This document shows positions 16,182 to 23,098 of a DNA stretch of 57,922 nucleotides, one piece after another. The DNA comes from Candidatus Hermodarchaeota archaeon. GTDB lineage: Archaea > Asgardarchaeota > Hermodarchaeia > Hermodarchaeales > Hermodarchaeaceae. The number at the start of each line of letters is the position of its first letter. Position 1 is the stretch's first letter. The stretch spans positions 1 to 57,922 of the forward strand of contig JAEOUH010000008.1 of the NCBI GenBank assembly GCA_016839365.1, in the 5' to 3' direction. The notes under the pieces are model-generated. The model was not told the origin of the DNA and did not search any database. It was given only the letters and a program-made list of their open reading frames with translations. The translations under genes and the position numbers were made by a program.

Positions 16182-16604
16182 TTAGAGCCCTTTAATCACT
16201 TGCATGAGATAACTGTGGTGACGTTTTTCGTCTTCAAGAATGTGTTCTAAGATTGCCTTGATTGTTGGTTGCTTGACAATTTTGATTTGTTCTTGGACAA
16301 GCTCAATCATGTGTTCCTCGATTTTGATGTGTTTCTCCAGGTCACGTTTTGCTACCAACTTGTCAGTCCATTTTTCTTCGTGGAAGTCTTTGAATGAGTA
16401 AGGCTGTTTCTTCAACACCCGTTCGATAGTTTCATACATCTTCGCGTGTTTACTCGAGTCCATACCTAACTCATCAACGATGAGTTTAACCGCTGCGTTA
16501 TCAATCGTGGCTGCTGTATTCTTATAGAGCTTCACGGCCTGTTTTTCGATATTGATAGCTTTTTGAATGAAATCGAGTAATTCTTTATGGGGACCTTCAG
16601 ACAT
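16182..16604 (-). CDS. Ferritin-like / rubrerythrin-type di-iron protein
   Basis: IEKQA..DSSKH..IEEHM..EDEKRHH; start reassigned to MSEGPH. Confidence 0.8.
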   Translation of the reverse strand: MSEGPHKELLDFIQKAINIEKQAVKLYKNTAATIDNAAVKLIVDELGMDSSKHAKMYETIERVLKKQPYSFKDFHEEKWTDKLVAKRDLEKHIKIEEHMIELVQEQIKIVKQPTIKAILEHILEDEKRHHSYLMQVIKGL

Positions 16605-16685
16605 GATGTTCACACCAGCAGATACGTTAACACCGAACTGAGATTTCCCAGTAAAAAAGACTTCTCCTCTTCGCATTGTAGCCCT

Positions 16686-17111
16686 TTAGAATTTCCAAAT
16701 CTCTTCTTTGAGTATCCTGTGGTGACGTTTTTCGTCCTCAATGATATGTTTGAGGATAGTTTTTTGTGTCTTATCGTCAGTTGCGACGATCTCATCTTTA
16801 ATGAGTTCGATCATCTTATTTTCACGTTCGATGTGGTGCTTGATGGCTTCTAGTCCCTGGTTTCGTTGCTTCCAGGTGCTCAAATAGGTTTTTTCCTCCG
16901 CTTGCTCGCGTGAGGGTTTCTCCTTCTTTAAGGTATCAAGTAGCATCTGAACCATGCTTGCATGTTTCGTCGAATCTGCAGCGCAGATTTCAAACAAGAT
17001 TTTGATGCCCGGATGATCAATGTCTTTCATTTCTTTCCGGAGTGCGCGTGCCGATTCCTTTTCCAAAGTGAGTTGGGTTTCAAGTAATTCGATTAGTCTT
17101 TCATTTGTCAC
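16686..17111 (-). CDS. Ferritin-like / rubrerythrin-type di-iron protein (paralogue)
   Basis: LEKES..DSTKH..RENKM..EDEKRHH. Confidence 0.8.
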   Translation of the reverse strand: MTNERLIELLETQLTLEKESARALRKEMKDIDHPGIKILFEICAADSTKHASMVQMLLDTLKKEKPSREQAEEKTYLSTWKQRNQGLEAIKHHIERENKMIELIKDEIVATDDKTQKTILKHIIEDEKRHHRILKEEIWKF

Positions 17112-17118
17112 GTTTCTT

Positions 17119-17679
17119 TCACTTCTCCTTGAGCTTATCTAGAAGAGAACTGTAATATGATTGAACTTGTGTTCCCGTTCGTGTGTCTATTGCCTTAAAC
17201 TCTTTGGCTAATTCATCCATTTCTGCCTTCGACAATAATTGGCTGGCTGCTGGGAACAATTCGGTGTCTTCTAGCTTGATATGGGGCTCAATGAGGTCAG
17301 TATATTTATCTAGACAGCTGATGACTCTTTCGCGGGCGGATGGATCACCGGTAAACATTGGACGTGCAAAGCGACGAAGCTCTGCGATATAGGCAAGCAG
17401 GTACATATGCTCTTCAACGAGTTTGTCAATGGTTTCCTCAAATTCCGTTGTGCCTCCATGTTCAACAATGACTGGGAATAAGAATTGCTCTTCCTTTGAA
17501 TGATGCACTATATCGGCGTATGTGCTCCAAAAGTCGATAAGCCACCAATATCGGCGGGGGCGGATTGGACCTCCTGCTTCAATTTCATCTCGGAATGACT
17601 TTGTGATCGGTACTGCTTTCGCAATCAGCCGATGTTCCTGGGCAAGATGTTCTAGCGGTTGCATATTCACGAACTCCAT
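17119..17679 (-). CDS. Hemerythrin (HHE) domain protein
   Basis: EHRLI..HHSKEEQFLFP..EEH..HIKLEDTELFP. Confidence 0.9.
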   Translation of the reverse strand: MEFVNMQPLEHLAQEHRLIAKAVPITKSFRDEIEAGGPIRPRRYWWLIDFWSTYADIVHHSKEEQFLFPVIVEHGGTTEFEETIDKLVEEHMYLLAYIAELRRFARPMFTGDPSARERVISCLDKYTDLIEPHIKLEDTELFPAASQLLSKAEMDELAKEFKAIDTRTGTQVQSYYSSLLDKLKEK

Positions 17680-17868: not shown

Positions 17869-19626
17869 GTGTATATAATGGCACGTTTACGCCCCCGCTA
17901 CCTTGTATTCCTTATCAGCATCCTGATGATGGTGAGTGGTATCAGCATGGCTTGGGCTGCTCAAAACAACTTCGGAACCGTGCAAGCCACTGAAATCACT
18001 CTTGTGACTTCGGACGGTGTCCCCATTTCTGGCATTCTTCAACGTCCCCTTGCCGCCACAACTGCAACGCCACTCCCCGGTGTAATCGTTATTCACGGGG
18101 TCATTCAATCCAAAGAATGGGTCATGGCCTTTGGCATTGAACTAGCCCGCCGCGGATTCGTTGTTCTCACCATCGATGCCATGGGACATGGTAATTCCGG
18201 AACTAGTACAGTTCCAAATACGGATCGCGGAGGCCTGGCTGCCCTAGAATACTTGGACAGCCTCACCTACGTAAGCACTCTGGGTATGATTGGTCACTCA
18301 ATGGGGGCTGGAATTGCCATCCAAACCATCAATGCATCATCCATACAAGTGGATAGTTTAGTTATTGTGGGTGGAGGTAGTAGTAGCATGGCGACGTGGG
18401 CAAACGCTACCTATCCTCAGAACCTATTCTTTGTGGTGGGGCTCTATGATGAGCTCTTTGACGTTCCAGAGCTTCTGAACACTCTTGCAGGTCCGTTTAA
18501 CACCACGGCACCCGTGGTTCCGGGACAGCTCTATGGTGATTTTGCCACAGGAACTGCGCGTGGTATTATCCTCCCCCCAACCAATCATCTGTTTGAAACC
18601 ATTGATGCCACCTGTATTAGCTCAACCACTGAGTGGCTCATGGCAAGCCTCAAAGGAACTCCGGATACTTATTGGATTCCAAGCCAAAATCTGCTCTATC
18701 CCCTCTGGGTTGCTGGTGGGTTTTTGGCCTGTCTTGGAGCAATCCTTTCGGTCTTTGCCCTGTTCTCAATTCTCATTGGGTTCACTGTGTTTCGAAAAAT
18801 CCAACAGTCACCAAACTCATTATATCATGCGAAAAACTCGCGCTATCTAGTGATGGGTCTTCTCTATGGTCTCCTTGGCCTTGGGGCTTTGTTTACTATG
18901 CTTCTTGTTAATCTCCCCTTTACATATCCACAGAGTCTGGGTTTTCCTGTGATCTTGGGTTTGTTCTTCGGAAGTCTTGTTGCAGTATTACTGCTTATCG
19001 GAATCAAATATATGATGAATCGAAAAAGTGCTACTCCCACCTGGAATGATTTTGGAGGTTTTAACGGAGGTGAACAGAAAGACTATAGGAAGATCGGACA
19101 AACCATCAGTATCGGATTTCTTCTTGGTTTCATTGGGATTGCTTGGCTTAACCTTTGGGTTCTGCCAGTAGATCTGCTCCTCGCCTTGGACTTTCGTGTT
19201 TTTCTCCCATTCATGAAAGCCCTTTCACCACAGCGAGCGCTCTTTCTTCCTCTCTATTTCATACTTTTCCTACCCATCACCTTAATTGATGGACTCTGGA
19301 TAATGGGCTACCTTCGTACGAAGCCCATGGAGAATTGGTGGAAAACTCAGACTTCATGGACAACGAAAGCTATCTTCATCAAAGTCCTCGTCATGGCATT
19401 CATTCTTCTCATCCAAACCATCGCTAGTCTCGCCATTGGTGGTCCTTTCCTCTCAGGATTCATGGGTTTCTATCTACTGTTCCTCTGGATATTCATCCCA
19501 ATGTACGCGGTTTCCACGTCTTATTTAGCCTGGTCCTACCGTTTGAGCAATCGATTCTATATCTCTGTCCTGTTCAACGCATTCCTCTTCGCATGGCTCA
19601 TGGCTGCCATCCTTCCCATCATGTGA
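17869..19626 (+). CDS. Alpha/beta hydrolase with multi-pass membrane C-terminal domain
   Basis: VIHG, DAMGHGNS, GHSMG nucleophile elbow; about 8 TM helices at the C-terminus. Confidence 0.85.
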   Translation: MYIMARLRPRYLVFLISILMMVSGISMAWAAQNNFGTVQATEITLVTSDGVPISGILQRPLAATTATPLPGVIVIHGVIQSKEWVMAFGIELARRGFVVLTIDAMGHGNSGTSTVPNTDRGGLAALEYLDSLTYVSTLGMIGHSMGAGIAIQTINASSIQVDSLVIVGGGSSSMATWANATYPQNLFFVVGLYDELFDVPELLNTLAGPFNTTAPVVPGQLYGDFATGTARGIILPPTNHLFETIDATCISSTTEWLMASLKGTPDTYWIPSQNLLYPLWVAGGFLACLGAILSVFALFSILIGFTVFRKIQQSPNSLYHAKNSRYLVMGLLYGLLGLGALFTMLLVNLPFTYPQSLGFPVILGLFFGSLVAVLLLIGIKYMMNRKSATPTWNDFGGFNGGEQKDYRKIGQTISIGFLLGFIGIAWLNLWVLPVDLLLALDFRVFLPFMKALSPQRALFLPLYFILFLPITLIDGLWIMGYLRTKPMENWWKTQTSWTTKAIFIKVLVMAFILLIQTIASLAIGGPFLSGFMGFYLLFLWIFIPMYAVSTSYLAWSYRLSNRFYISVLFNAFLFAWLMAAILPIM

Positions 19627-19718: not shown

Positions 19719-21674
19719 GTGTCGGCGGATCGTTACTGGCTATTGGATGCGATCTATTCCGACGCCGACCAAGGAGTCTTACTCACCTTCCTCCAGACTC
19801 CCTCGCAAACTCTCAAAACAGTAAAAGTAGATTTCAAACCCTATTATTATGTACAGCCTGCAAGTCTGGGCGAAGCAGTTAAACGAAAAGACCTTATGAA
19901 AGACGAGTTCATCAACGTGGCACGTATACAGTTAGAGACTAGCGTTCAAGTGGATCGAGAATGGGAGAAAGACATCAAACCGGGACTTAGTTATATCTAC
20001 GACCAAGACCAACGGTTTGGGTGCCCCCACGTAAAGTCTGGATCAGGATTCAAACTCGATTTACAACTGCCTCAAAAACAACTGAAGGAATTTGAATCGC
20101 TTTTTATTGAGACAGCTGAACAAGACCCACTGAAATACGAATTTCTGAAGGAATATTTTCGATATGTGGTCCAGCCAGTTCCCAATATTCCCCAAGAGCT
20201 CTTGAACCTGGACTCGACCTATAATCAATCCCAGATGCTATGGGCCTGGATGCTTGCACGGATCGCGAATATCCCCTTCAAGCGAGCACTCACGAGCCGA
20301 AGCGTCTCCGAGTGGATTCGATCCATGCTAAACACCACGTACCGCAAACTAGGACTCCTAATCCCTGATCCTAACGAATTAACCAAAGGTCATACCCCTC
20401 ATCGTGTGGAAGGGGCGTTGACCATTGCGCCTACACCTGGGGCCTATTACAATATGACTGTGTTGGACTTTGAGTCCCTTTATCCGAGCCTCATTGACAC
20501 ATACAATCTATCTTACGAAACGATGGATTGCGACCATAACGACTGTCGCACATTCAAAGTTCCTAACGAAGCCCACTATGTGTGTAACCATCGACGGGGG
20601 ATTTTCAGTGCCCTGATTGGAGCTCTTAAGGATTTACGGATTCATTGGTTCAAACCACGAAGTCGTCAAAAGAACATCAAGCCAGACCAACGAACTAAGG
20701 CCAAAACCATTTCGGATCTACTCAAATTTCTGTTAGTAAGCAGCGGTGGCGTTACCATCCGAATTCATGGACTCGCAAGCCCTCCATTAGCAGAATCAAT
20801 GATGGCCTACGGTCGGTGGGCGCTTCAGACAACGTGGGATTTAGCCATTGAACATGGCATGCACCCAATATATGGCGACACCGATTCGATCTTTCTAGAC
20901 AAACCCAGCCCCCAACAAATCAACTGGCTAATCAAAATTGTACGAGACGAACTGAAACTGAAACTCGCCGTGGATGTAGTCTATTCCCTTTGTGTCTTCA
21001 GCTCTGCCAAAAAAGCTTACTTTGGCATCCTTCCCGATGGAACCCCAGATATTAAAGGGATTACGCTTGGCAAATCCAGTACACCTCCGCGATTCCGAGA
21101 AATCTTTATGGAGGCGGTCAAACCTCTTGCAGGTGTCGACACTCCTAAAAAACTCAGGGAAGCCTCTCCGAAGATTATTGGGTTTTTGCAGCGGGAAGTA
21201 ACTCGGCTAAAGCGCCGCGTTTTCAAAGTTGAAGAGTTAGAATATCGAGTCAAGGTTTGGAAAGCTGATAAAGATCGGGACAAGGACGCGGCATTAGCGC
21301 AACCCTATCAGGCACTTCAACAACTCACTGATAAGGGGTTTAAAGTGAAAAAACGCGCAGAAATAGGATTTGTCAAAGTGAATCCTTTTCGGTATGGCCC
21401 CAAGACATTCACAGTGAAACCCACACAGATGGCAACGAAGGACGAAATTGACATCAATGATTATGTCAGAAAACTAGCAATGGCATTTGAACAGGTTTTA
21501 GTTCCCCTAGATATTAAGTTTCCGAGTCAGAAATCCCATCATCTTGATGACTATCTTTCCGATGAAGTTCGTAAACCATTCAGTGAAGAATTTTCGGAAC
21601 TCGAAGCCCGAAGACAGGTTGATCGACAAAAAAGATTATTCGACTTCACAAACGATGAAGAAGTAGACGATTAA
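19719..21674 (+). CDS. polB: Family B DNA polymerase, PolB1-like, lacking the 3'-5' exonuclease domain
   Basis: Motif A VLDFESLYPS, motif C YGDTDS, KKAY, KG; FKPYYY N-terminal domain; only 651 aa. Confidence 0.9.
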   Translation: MSADRYWLLDAIYSDADQGVLLTFLQTPSQTLKTVKVDFKPYYYVQPASLGEAVKRKDLMKDEFINVARIQLETSVQVDREWEKDIKPGLSYIYDQDQRFGCPHVKSGSGFKLDLQLPQKQLKEFESLFIETAEQDPLKYEFLKEYFRYVVQPVPNIPQELLNLDSTYNQSQMLWAWMLARIANIPFKRALTSRSVSEWIRSMLNTTYRKLGLLIPDPNELTKGHTPHRVEGALTIAPTPGAYYNMTVLDFESLYPSLIDTYNLSYETMDCDHNDCRTFKVPNEAHYVCNHRRGIFSALIGALKDLRIHWFKPRSRQKNIKPDQRTKAKTISDLLKFLLVSSGGVTIRIHGLASPPLAESMMAYGRWALQTTWDLAIEHGMHPIYGDTDSIFLDKPSPQQINWLIKIVRDELKLKLAVDVVYSLCVFSSAKKAYFGILPDGTPDIKGITLGKSSTPPRFREIFMEAVKPLAGVDTPKKLREASPKIIGFLQREVTRLKRRVFKVEELEYRVKVWKADKDRDKDAALAQPYQALQQLTDKGFKVKKRAEIGFVKVNPFRYGPKTFTVKPTQMATKDEIDINDYVRKLAMAFEQVLVPLDIKFPSQKSHHLDDYLSDEVRKPFSEEFSELEARRQVDRQKRLFDFTNDEEVDD

Positions 21675-22642: not shown

Positions 22643-23098
22643 TCACTCGCCACACCGGAAGAATAGCCAACCATTTTCGACCTTTTTAAAACGAATCAGG
22701 CAATATCTTCCCTGTAATCGCTTACCCTTTATTATAACGATGATTTCGTCTTTTTCCCATTTTTCCGTCTCATATTTTCCTGTATCCCAAAGCTCAACGA
22801 TCCCGGCTCAGTATTCACCTTCAGCAATCTCTCCCTGAAATGATCCGTACTCAATCGGATGATCTTCTGTTTGGATTGCCAACCGTCGAATGCCTTTCTC
22901 CGTTGGTGGTTCCTTGGGTACTGCCCAACTGATGAGTACACCATCTCGCTCTAACCGTAAATCCCAATGTAGGTTGCGGGCTTGGTGACGTTGGATTACA
23001 TAAATCTGATTTGAGCCCAGCTTTACTTCTGGTTTAGGTTCAGTGGTTTTTGTAAAGTCTCGTTTTTTCTCATATTCTTCCAAACTCATCTTGAACAC
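22643..23098 (-). pseudogene. LigD-type DNA 3'-phosphoesterase (stand-alone PE domain) interrupted by one in-frame TGA
   Basis: YEKKRDFTKTTEP, YVIQRHQARNLHWDLRLE, SWAVPK, RLAIQTEDHP, FQGEIAEGEY-[TGA at 22810-22808][12 protein letters not shown]..[22 protein letters not shown]-stop, all in one frame. Confidence 0.85.

What the first reader, a model, noticed from the sequence alone, without database searches (positions are those of the whole stretch)
19719..21674. Proofreading-less PolB1-type polymerase with a rewritten motif B
Seen in sequence: motifs A (DFESLYPS, steric-gate Tyr kept) and C (YGDTDS) are intact. The N-terminal domain (FKPYYY..EKDIK..YIYD..QPVPNIP) joins the pre-palm helices (LARIANIP..VSEWIRSM..LLIP) after only about 20 aa, and no ExoI/II/III acidic motifs are visible. 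Motif B, normally KxxxNxxYG, reads KFLLVSSGG. Established: NLSYET..C..H.VC..R.G..G.L.D.R is typical of crenarchaeal-type PolB1, and the motif B Asn/Tyr residues shape the nascent base-pair pocket. Inference: an active but low-fidelity repair or translesion polymerase derived from PolB1 by excision of the exonuclease, different from PolB2, which usually has degraded catalytic motifs.
Basis: partly seen in the sequence, partly recalled or inferred. Interest (0 to 1): 0.85.

Follow-up and report, generated by a model that had tools for sequence, protein, structure and literature searches.

The report
PolB1-derived polymerase lacking its proofreading domain
This gene encodes a family-B DNA polymerase that descends from the archaeal replicative enzyme PolB1, has cleanly lost its whole proofreading domain but kept every catalytic residue, and belongs to a conserved family, undescribed in the papers I could search, that probably does specialised repair-type DNA synthesis.

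Summary
ORF 19719-21674 (+) encodes a 651-aa family-B polymerase. Its N-terminal domain, palm, fingers and thumb align with PolB1: Sulfolobus Dpo1 (1s5j) gives Z 35.9, rmsd 3.0 A over 502 residues. The roughly 190 residues that carry ExoI-III in PolB1 are missing as one block.

This is not an artefact. The same architecture occurs in at least 134 species genomes. It is in 18 of 18 genomes of the window's Asgard family, in none of 132 other Asgard genomes sampled, and in 17 of 151 sampled Bathyarchaeia, including closed chromosomes. It always sits beside a full-length PolB1. dN/dS is 0.10.

Motif A, motif C, the finger Arg/Lys and the KKxY motif are conserved. Motif B's Asn is Val in 195 of 196 members, as in PolB2. 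Motif B's Tyr is Gly only in the Asgard branch.

In trees the family is monophyletic and groups with PolB1, not PolB2. A PolB1-type C-terminal PCNA-binding motif is kept (complex model 0.72, best control 0.04).

Activity, low fidelity and a repair role remain inferences. I found no description of this family in the searched literature. First readers of this scan flagged the same family on at least seven other genomes.

The parts
19719..21674 (+). Whole gene: 651-aa PolB1-derived family-B DNA polymerase without an exonuclease domain (P0001)
   Evidence: ORF and translation. PF00136 is the only Pfam hit. Best solved relative is 1s5j. AF2 model has pLDDT 89.3.
19719..20192 (+). PolB N-terminal domain, residues 1-158, ending in QPVPNIP, the segment that in PolB1 leads into ExoI
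   Evidence: The model aligns to 1s5j from residue 2. The N-terminal domain of a Bathyarchaeia member aligns to Dpo1 chain residues 16-193, E 6e-9. P41, Y42, W82, E83, Y94 and D95 are conserved.
20193..20234 (+). Junction linker, residues 159-172, that stands in place of the roughly 190-aa exonuclease domain
   Evidence: Single large gap after residue 166 in alignment A2. PolB1s carry ExoI, ExoII and ExoIII there.
20466..20489 (+). Motif A, DFESLYPS: catalytic Asp250 and steric-gate Tyr255. Glu252 is specific to this family (PolB1 has Ala).
   Evidence: DFESLYPS in 185 of 205 members, the rest near-identical.
20529..20585 (+). Cys271-His273-Cys276-Cys289 cluster between motif A and the fingers; possible metal site shared with most PolB1s
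   Evidence: At least 90% conserved in A2. Compared with PolB2 and PolB3.
20634..20657 (+). Finger helix with conserved Arg307 and Lys312 (triphosphate contacts in family-B polymerases)
   Evidence: R307 is invariant and K312 at least 90% conserved across the short family and PolB1.
20724..20750 (+). Motif B, KFLLVSSGG: Lys336 kept, Asn replaced by Val340, Tyr replaced by Gly343
20871..20888 (+). Motif C, YGDTDS, with both catalytic Asp residues
   Evidence: YGDTDS in 204 of 205 members.
21009..21020 (+). KKAY, the KKxY primer-terminus motif
   Evidence: K432 and Y434 are invariant.
21534..21557 (+). PolB1-type C-terminal PCNA-binding (PIP-like) motif, SHHLDDYL
   Evidence: The same position and pattern (xxLxxF/Y/W-hydrophobic) ends full-length PolB1s and the Bathyarchaeia members. 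In the complex model residues 605-614 sit in the PIP pocket of PCNA.
21627..21647 (+). Second, canonical PIP-like box, QKRLFDF, in an acidic disordered tail found only in the Asgard branch
   Evidence: Conserved QKRLxD[FY] in all Asgard members. The tail has pLDDT below 50. Not placed in the PCNA pocket in the 1:1 model.

Best explanation
The gene encodes a chromosomal family-B DNA polymerase of a distinct, conserved lineage that split from archaeal PolB1 and lost the entire 3'-5' exonuclease domain by an in-frame excision.

What is kept:
- the N-terminal domain, palm, fingers and thumb
- the two metal-binding Asp positions (motifs A and C)
- the steric-gate Tyr
- the triphosphate-binding Arg and Lys of the fingers and the motif-B Lys
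- the KKxY motif
- the PolB1-type C-terminal PCNA-binding motif

What is changed is the wall of the nascent-base-pair pocket in motif B. Asn is Val across the family, as in PolB2. In the Asgard branch the minor-groove-sensing Tyr is also replaced by Gly.

Most likely it is an active, DNA-templated, dNTP-selective polymerase that is tethered by PCNA and cannot proofread. It would be used for specialised, non-bulk synthesis, such as extension from mismatched or damaged primer ends and gap filling. It sits beside the cell's full PolB1, PolB2, PolD and a Y-family polymerase.

Shown: the architecture, the conservation, the phylogenetic position and the distribution. Inferred: catalytic activity, PCNA binding in the cell, and the repair or extender role.
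For: Architecture:
- Only PF00136 is found.
- The match to Dpo1 starts at query residue 166, chain residue 387.
- One gap with a median of 190 aa covers ExoI-III.
- The AF2 model has pLDDT 89.3 and pTM 0.83.
- The best structural match is 1s5j, Z 35.9, rmsd 3.0 A over 502 residues, spanning model residues 2-604.

Real and selected:
- At least 134 species genomes hold it.
- It is in 18 of 18 genomes of the window's Asgard family and in 0 of 132 other Asgard genomes sampled.
- It is in 17 of 151 sampled Bathyarchaeia, including closed chromosomes.
- dN/dS is 0.10 against the closest orthologue.

Catalytic residues are invariant or nearly so.

Paralogy:
- The window's genome has a full PolB1 with an exonuclease domain (NF004417, 999 bits, cut-off 780) and a PolB2, plus PolD DP2.
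- Five closed Bathyarchaeia chromosomes each have a full PolB1 plus the short form, with or without PolB2, and a Y-family polymerase.
- A Y-family polymerase is present in 16 of 18 genomes of the Asgard family.

Phylogeny: the short family is monophyletic (100), joins PolB1 (99) and is separated from PolB2 (100).

Parallel with PolB2: PolB2 also has Val at the motif-B Asn position. The PolB2 enzyme Dpo2 is an active extender polymerase without exonuclease activity (PMC8764526).

RB69 precedent: Tyr567 makes water-mediated minor-groove contacts. The RB69 triple mutant L561A/S565G/Y567A was what allowed 8 of the 12 mismatches to be captured in ternary-complex crystals (PMC3799440). The Asgard branch carries Gly at the Tyr567 position.

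PCNA: the C-terminal motif has the same form and position as in PolB1s. The complex model with the genome's own PCNA scores 0.72 against a best control of 0.04. That mark was reached by 51 of 78 solved complexes and 2 of 108 mismatched pairs. The runs agree in at least 74% of contacts and the partner's pLDDT is at least 65. PIP-PCNA complexes are solved many times, so this pass shows likeness to them rather than an independent prediction.
Against: Gene neighbourhoods give no consistent functional link:
- Asgard loci share an upstream alpha/beta-hydrolase gene, an FAA hydrolase and a LigD-type 3'-phosphoesterase.
- Bathyarchaeia loci have radical-SAM and lipoate-ligase genes instead.
- Synteny within the single Asgard family extends well beyond these genes, so it may be inherited rather than functional.

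The organisms already have PolB2 and a Y-family polymerase, so a further translesion enzyme is not obviously needed.

Dpo2 shows that a Val in motif B is compatible with high insertion fidelity (PMC8764526), so 'low fidelity' does not follow from the sequence.

The family is patchy in Bathyarchaeia (about 11% of sampled genomes), so its role is accessory.
Confidence: 0.6

Rival explanations
1. It is a replication-fork polymerase without proofreading, working like eukaryotic Pol alpha.
For: The catalytic core is intact and a PCNA motif is kept. It co-occurs with PolD and PolB1. Pol alpha is a family-B polymerase that lost exonuclease activity (PMC7544198, PMC12680538).
Against: The family is absent from 132 of 150 other sampled Asgard genomes and from about 89% of sampled Bathyarchaeia, so it cannot be a core fork component. 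It is not next to primase or any replication gene.
Confidence: 0.12
2. It is a catalytically weak or inactive paralogue that serves as a DNA- or PCNA-binding scaffold or regulator.
For: The motif-B Asn and, in Asgard, the motif-B Tyr are normally conserved pocket residues and both are replaced. PolB2 was long thought inactive on similar grounds (PMC4104785).
Against: Both motif-C Asp residues, the motif-A Asp, the steric-gate Tyr, the finger Arg and Lys, the motif-B Lys and KKxY are invariant across lineages only 40% identical, which is not expected of an inactive protein. PolB2 itself turned out to be active (PMC8764526).
Confidence: 0.08
3. The proofreading function is supplied in trans by a separately encoded exonuclease, so the enzyme is an accurate two-subunit polymerase.
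For: Other replicases separate polymerase and exonuclease, for example PolD with DP1 and DP2 (PMC7544198).
Against: The genome has only one PolB-type exonuclease domain and it lies inside the full PolB1. No exonuclease gene is a conserved neighbour in either lineage. The genome is only 84% complete, and DnaQ-like genes elsewhere were not surveyed.
Confidence: 0.05
4. It is simply a PolB2, or a truncated, misassembled or pseudogenised PolB1, or a virus- or mobile-element-borne polymerase.
For: Its length is close to that of PolB2. PolB2 also has a degenerate or absent exonuclease region and a Val in motif B (PMC7544198).
Against: Against PolB2:
- PolB2 models score only 68 and 59 bits.
- Motif C is intact, unlike PolB2's HGIVD.
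- It forms a separate clade.

Against a truncation, misassembly or pseudogene:
- The same uninterrupted architecture is present in closed chromosomes and in at least 134 species genomes, with dN/dS 0.10.

Against a viral or mobile origin:
- No member was found on IMG/VR viral contigs. The best hits there are 29-36% identical and start at about residue 160.
- GC content is like that of its surroundings.
Confidence: 0.03

Closest known systems
Archaeal PolB1 (Sulfolobus/Saccharolobus Dpo1, PDB 1s5j; NCBIfam NF004417)
   Same: It is the closest relative by sequence (E 8e-62), by structure (Z 35.9) and by tree position. Shared features are the N-terminal domain, the NLSYET..C.H..C...VC segment, the finger helix, motifs A and C, KKxY and the C-terminal PIP-like motif.
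   Different: - The entire exonuclease domain (about 190 aa, ExoI-III) is missing.
- It scores 336 bits against a cut-off of 780 for NF004417.
- Motif A has Glu instead of Ala.
- Motif B has Val instead of Asn, and Gly instead of Tyr in the Asgard branch.
- The segment after motif B is GVT-IRIHGLA instead of GVFGAE.F.LY.
- The family sits on a long stem branch (1.19).
- It is an extra paralogue beside a complete PolB1.
Archaeal PolB2 (Dpo2), the exonuclease-inactive translesion extender
   Same: Both are family-B polymerases of the B1-B3 clade without proofreading. Both have Val at the motif-B Asn position. Both occur as an additional paralogue beside other polymerases (PMC7544198). This is the best experimentally studied functional analogue (PMC8764526).
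   Different: - PolB2 keeps a degenerate exonuclease-region scaffold (735-770 aa here).
- PolB2 has only one Asp in motif C (HGIVD) plus a compensating D(K/R) motif (PMC7544198).
- It forms a separate clade.
- The window's genome encodes its own PolB2 as well.
Eukaryotic Pol zeta and Pol alpha catalytic subunits
   Same: They are family-B polymerases that work without proofreading. Pol zeta is a mismatch and lesion extender (PMC7544198, PMC8764526).
   Different: The eukaryotic enzymes keep an inactivated exonuclease fold and have C-terminal metal-binding domains with B-subunits. [quoted passage not shown] The resemblance is functional analogy only.
RB69 polymerase pocket mutants (L561A/S565G/Y567A)
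   Same: The Asgard branch naturally carries a small residue (Gly) at the position of RB69 Tyr567, the residue making water-mediated minor-groove contacts. The engineered mutants were needed to capture mismatches in the active site (PMC3799440).
   Different: Those are laboratory mutants of a phage replicase with its exonuclease domain. In the family described here the change is natural, fixed in one lineage, and combined with Asn to Val and with loss of the exonuclease domain.

Membership tests
Family B DNA polymerase (PF00136) | Polymerase-domain profile match above the curated cut-off | tested here: met
   80.8 bits against a cut-off of 23, covering residues 185-594.
Family B DNA polymerase (PF00136) | Motif A DxxSLYPS, motif C DTD, motif B Lys, and KKxY | tested here: met
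   DFESLYPS, YGDTDS, K336 and KKAY are conserved across the family.
Family B DNA polymerase (PF00136) | Canonical motif B KxxxN[SA]xYG | tested here: not met
   The window's protein reads KFLLVSSGG. The Asn site is Val in 195 of 196 members. The Tyr site is Gly in 57, Tyr in 137 and Phe in 2.
Family B DNA polymerase (PF00136) | Right-hand fold with a PolB N-terminal domain | tested here: met
   Predicted model against 1s5j: Z 35.9, rmsd 3.0 A, 502 residues. Thermococcales PolBs give Z about 30.
PolB1 (NF004417/NF004415/NF004419 equivalogs) | Full-length profile score above the curated cut-off | tested here: not met
   336.5 bits against a cut-off of 780. Only profile positions 416-850 are matched.
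PolB1 (NF004417/NF004415/NF004419 equivalogs) | 3'-5' exonuclease domain with ExoI, ExoII and ExoIII | tested here: not met
   No PF03104 hit. The domain is absent as one block in the alignment.
PolB1 (NF004417/NF004415/NF004419 equivalogs) | Phylogenetic grouping with PolB1 rather than PolB2 or PolB3 | tested here: met
   PolB1 plus the short family form a clade with support 99, and PolB2 is apart with support 100. Whether the short family is sister to PolB1 or nested within it is unresolved.
PolB2 (NF004416/NF004418) | Profile score, and motif C with a single Asp (HG[IV]VD) | tested here: not met
   68 and 59 bits against cut-offs of 516 and 692. Motif C is YGDTDS, whereas PolB2s have HGIVDC or HGIVDS. 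Separate clade.
PCNA-binding polymerases (PIP-box clients) | C-terminal PIP-like motif that docks in the PCNA hydrophobic pocket | tested here: inconclusive
   The motif is present and conserved. The complex model scores 0.72 against a best control of 0.04, with L609 and Y612 in the pocket. Likeness to solved PIP-PCNA complexes can produce this result on its own. There is no binding experiment.
Translesion or extender polymerases (functional class) | Lesion bypass or mismatch extension activity, and damage-inducible expression | not testable with these tools
   This needs biochemistry and expression data.

The most novel reading that the evidence does not exclude
This is an independently evolved archaeal counterpart of Pol zeta and PolB2. 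In this reading a replicative PolB1 was turned into a PCNA-tethered mismatch and lesion extender by deleting the proofreading domain outright and widening the nascent-base-pair pocket (Asn to Val, then Tyr to Gly). The gene then passed horizontally from Bathyarchaeia into the ancestor of one Asgard family, where it became fixed.
Probability: 0.35. Interest if true: 0.7.

Novelty: new variant of a known kind. Interest (0 to 1): 0.6.

Why it matters
Family-B polymerases that work without proofreading normally keep a dead exonuclease fold (Pol alpha, Pol zeta, PolB2). This family instead removes the domain cleanly and keeps a fully conserved catalytic centre. That shows the N-terminal domain and the polymerase core can stay stable without the exonuclease domain.

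It adds a fifth polymerase type (beside PolB1, PolB2, PolD and a Y-family enzyme) to the repertoire of one Asgard family and of some Bathyarchaeia. That raises the question of how work is divided among damage-tolerance polymerases in archaea.

It also offers natural variants of the motif-B fidelity residues (Val/Tyr versus Val/Gly) for testing how the base-pair pocket sets fidelity and mismatch extension.

Natural compact exonuclease-free PolB enzymes may also be of interest as scaffolds for enzyme engineering.

Tried and rejected
- PolB2 membership is rejected.
- Assembly artefact, or a deletion unique to this genome, is rejected.
- Viral or mobile-element origin: no family member on IMG/VR contigs, only ordinary PolB1-like hits from about residue 160.
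- Split gene with a stand-alone PolB exonuclease: the genome has only one PF03104 match, inside the full PolB1.
- Fused or longer forms: in the exhaustive representative search all family members are 614-656 aa or fragments. Scores then fall from 402 to 270 bits, where full-length PolB1s begin.
- Functional inference from gene neighbours gave no link shared between the Asgard and Bathyarchaeia loci. The LigD-type phosphoesterase two genes downstream is conserved in 12 of the 18 Asgard loci compared (the window included). Synteny there extends far beyond it, and in this window the gene carries an in-frame TGA.
- Replacement of a missing Y-family polymerase: none was found in this 84%-complete genome, but 16 of 18 relatives and all five closed Bathyarchaeia genomes have one.
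- Literature: six full-text searches and four papers read for this question gave no description of a PolB1 lineage without the exonuclease domain. Subscription-only papers were not searchable.
Full report
**The gene.** The window carries an uninterrupted ORF at 19719-21674 on the + strand, 651 codons with a GTG start. Orthologues start at the same position with Met. Pfam recognises only the family-B polymerase domain, PF00136, at residues 185-594 with 80.8 bits, and no exonuclease domain. NCBIfam's PolB1 models match only with their C-terminal halves. NF004417 gives 336.5 bits against a cut-off of 780, over profile positions 416-850. The PolB2 models score 68 and 59 bits. Against solved structures the best sequence match is Saccharolobus solfataricus Dpo1 (1s5j, E 8e-62). 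Query residues 166-600 align to chain residues 387-825.

**The exonuclease domain is absent as one block.** I aligned 33 members of the short family with 27 full-length PolB1 representatives (A2). There is a single large gap after query residue 166. PolB1s have a median of 190 residues there (range 180-212) and the short family has none. The PolB1 consensus inside that gap shows ExoI (A.DIEV), ExoII (TFNGD.FDL.YL..RA) and ExoIII (YC..D..LT). In the short family, QPVPNIP is followed by about 14 linker residues and then the post-exonuclease helix MLARIANIP. In PolB1, QPVPNIP is the segment that leads into ExoI.

**Structure prediction.** The AlphaFold2 model is confident (mean pLDDT 89.3, pTM 0.83). 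Only the last 45 or so residues are disordered. Its best structural match is Dpo1, with Z 35.9 and rmsd 3.0 A over 502 aligned residues, spanning model residues 2-604 and chain residues 47-863. Thermococcales PolBs follow at Z about 30. The N-terminal domain is therefore retained. For a Bathyarchaeia member it also aligns to the Dpo1 N-terminal domain by sequence (E 6e-9), and that alignment ends exactly at the P.IK segment before ExoI.

**It is a conserved family, not an accident.**
- A word-indexed search found 1481 relatives. The best 120 are all 560-680 aa proteins or fragments from Asgard MAGs (labelled Promethearchaeota, Hermodarchaeota, Thorarchaeota, Hodarchaeota; 55-87% identity) and from Bathyarchaeota (about 43% identity).
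- The exhaustive search of 50%-identity representatives found about eight clusters of this architecture. Scores then drop from 402 to 270 bits, where full-length PolB1s begin, and those match only from query residue about 160 onward.
- In species-representative genomes, 134 stretches encode a relative, six of them on closed Bathyarchaeota chromosomes.
- Within the window's phylum the protein was found in 18 of 18 other genomes of the window's own family (two genera) and in none of 132 genomes from 26 other families.
- In an even sample of the class Bathyarchaeia it was found in 17 of 151 genomes.
- Against the closest orthologue (87% identity) dN is 0.064 and dS is 0.638, so dN/dS is 0.10.
- No member was found on IMG/VR viral contigs.

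**It is an extra paralogue.** The window's genome (2.2 Mb, 84% complete) has three PolB genes.
- One is a full PolB1 with an exonuclease domain. It scores 999 bits on NF004417, has PF03104, and is interrupted by a LAGLIDADG intein.
- One is a 735-aa PolB2-type protein.
- The third is the gene under study.

The genome also encodes PolD DP2. Five closed Bathyarchaeia chromosomes each encode a full PolB1 (863-903 aa, above the NF004417 cut-off where tested) and the short form (629-636 aa). Three of them also have a PolB2-like gene, and all five have a Y-family polymerase. No Y-family gene was found in the window's own incomplete genome, but 16 of 18 genomes of its family have one.

**Phylogeny.** A 62-row maximum-likelihood tree (LG+C20 PMSF, quick search) has three main features. 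The short family is monophyletic (SH-aLRT 100, stem length 1.19). It joins PolB1 in a clade with support 99. PolB2 is a separate clade with support 100. The base of PolB1 is unresolved, so I cannot say whether the short family is sister to PolB1 or nested in it. It is not a recent duplicate of the Bathyarchaeia PolB1, which sits elsewhere with full support.

A careful 31-row tree rooted on PolB1 places the Asgard clade (100/100) inside the diversity of Bathyarchaeia sequences, with moderate support of 84/96 and 88/81. The intermediate branches are also Bathyarchaeia. Together with the restriction to one Asgard family, this favours transfer from Bathyarchaeia into that family. I did not test this with an AU test.

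**Active-site inventory.**
- Motif A is DFESLYPS in 185 of 205 members, with near-identical variants in the rest. The catalytic Asp and the steric-gate Tyr are kept. The Glu replaces the Ala of PolB1 and is specific to this family.
- Motif C is YGDTDS in 204 of 205 members.
- Finger Arg307 and Lys312, motif-B Lys336, and KKAY 431-434 are conserved.
- At motif B, the Asn position is Val in 195 of 196 scorable members. The Tyr position is Tyr in 137 (Bathyarchaeia), Gly in 57 (Asgard) and Phe in 2.
- PolB2 sequences in the same alignment also have Val at the Asn position (KW.LV..FG). They have HGIVD[CS] at motif C, which the short family does not.
- In RB69 polymerase, Tyr567 of motif B makes water-mediated minor-groove contacts. 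The triple mutant L561A/S565G/Y567A was what allowed 8 of the 12 mismatches to be captured in ternary-complex crystals (PMC3799440).
- From memory only, not tested here: the motif-B Asn contacts the incoming nucleotide.
- Relative to Bathyarchaeia members, the Asgard branch lacks two short segments of the N-terminal domain, 14 and 7 residues. The second segment aligns with the Dpo1 stretch PLAVRRL. From memory, that stretch corresponds to the uracil-sensing Val93 loop of Thermococcales PolBs, so read-ahead uracil recognition may be lost in the Asgard branch. This is an untested idea.

**PCNA.** Full-length PolB1s end in a motif of the form xxLxxF followed by a hydrophobic residue. The short family keeps it at the same place (SHHLDDYL here, ISDWF or LSDWF in Bathyarchaeia). 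The Asgard branch adds an acidic tail with a second box, QKRLxD[FY]. The lead to look for PIP boxes came from earlier first-reader notes of this scan.

A complex model of residues 590-651 with the genome's own PCNA scored 0.72 against a best control of 0.04. That mark was reached by 51 of 78 solved complexes and 2 of 108 mismatched pairs. The runs agree in at least 74% of contacts and the partner's pLDDT is at least 65. Residues 605-614 lie in the canonical pocket. PIP-PCNA complexes are well represented among solved structures, so this shows likeness to them and does not prove binding.

**Genomic context.** Context gives no shared functional clue. In the Asgard loci the upstream same-strand gene is a 585-aa protein with an alpha/beta-hydrolase domain (16 loci). 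Downstream on the other strand lie an FAA-family hydrolase and a LigD-type 3'-phosphoesterase (12 loci). These genomes are syntenic over a much longer stretch, so the arrangement may simply be inherited. In Bathyarchaeia the neighbours are radical-SAM proteins, a lipoate-protein ligase and others. In this window the phosphoesterase gene carries an in-frame TGA where orthologues have the Gly of GEYGAG.

**Interpretation.** Shown:
- a conserved, selected, chromosomal PolB1-derived polymerase lineage with the proofreading domain deleted;
- intact catalytic residues, an altered base-pair pocket and a retained PolB1-type PCNA motif;
- the gene always sits beside a complete PolB1.

Inferred:
- it is catalytically active (the invariance of every catalytic residue across lineages 40% identical argues strongly for this);
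- it binds PCNA;
- it serves specialised synthesis such as extension from mismatched or damaged termini, or gap filling.

The nearest experimentally studied analogue is PolB2 (Dpo2). That enzyme has robust polymerase activity, no exonuclease activity, high insertion fidelity on undamaged DNA, and efficient extension of mismatches and of termini placed opposite lesions (PMC8764526). This precedent supports a damage-tolerance role. It also warns that 'low fidelity' cannot be read from the motif-B Val alone. The additional Tyr to Gly change in the Asgard branch is the more likely candidate for relaxed checking of the terminal base pair.

**Novelty.** NCBI and JGI label these proteins only as 'DNA polymerase domain-containing protein', 'hypothetical protein' or 'DNA polymerase elongation subunit (family B)'. 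No curated family model reaches its cut-off. The main surveys of archaeal PolB diversity define B1-B10 and discuss exonuclease decay only for B2/G2 (PMC7544198; PMC4104785). A 2025 study of Asgard replication machinery does not mention this form (PMC12680538). Full-text searches found no description. Subscription-only papers were not searchable.

First readers of this scan independently flagged the same family on at least seven other genomes, and once more on this same stretch. Those are unchecked notes and do not count as support.

Noticed in passing
window 22646-23092 (-), stop codon at 22808-22810: A LigD-type 3'-phosphoesterase gene (PF13298 in the orthologue, 88% identical) has an in-frame TGA where four orthologues have the Gly of the conserved GEYGAG. 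It is either a pseudogene or a sequencing or assembly error in this MAG.
   Followed up: partly
G000:C71:23517-27248 (L006:118-3849, outside the window): The genome's full-length PolB1 (1243 aa) carries an insertion of about 350 aa with a LAGLIDADG homing-endonuclease match, lying between the fingers/motif-B region and motif C. It looks like an intein.
   Followed up: partly
window 20529-20585 (residues 271-289): A Cys-His-Cys-Cys cluster between motif A and the fingers is at least 90% conserved in both the short family and PolB1 representatives. PolB2s have CxCC...C at the same place, and Sulfolobus Dpo1 lacks the first two ligands. It may be a structural metal site of the B1/B2 clade.
   Followed up: no
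window 17869-19626 (+): A 585-aa protein with an N-terminal alpha/beta-hydrolase domain lies 92 bases upstream on the same strand as the polymerase gene. It holds this position in the Asgard loci compared but in no Bathyarchaeia locus. Its function, and any link to the polymerase, are unknown.
   Followed up: partly
window 16182-17679 (-): Two rubrerythrin-like genes and a hemerythrin-domain gene lie in a row, an oxidative-stress-type cluster just upstream of the hydrolase and polymerase pair.
   Followed up: no
L058 and L069 (genome contigs): Two contigs carrying typical Bathyarchaeia-type short polymerases (42-43% identity to the query) sit in MAGs labelled as bacteria (Krumholzibacteriaceae, Acidiferrales). 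These are probably binning errors.
   Followed up: no
P0124 (metagenomic representative, 617 aa): This is the only family member found with a canonical motif B (KLLLNASYG). Its closest genome-borne relatives (about 60% identity, Bathyarchaeia) have Val at that position. It is either a reversion or a retained ancestral state.
   Followed up: no
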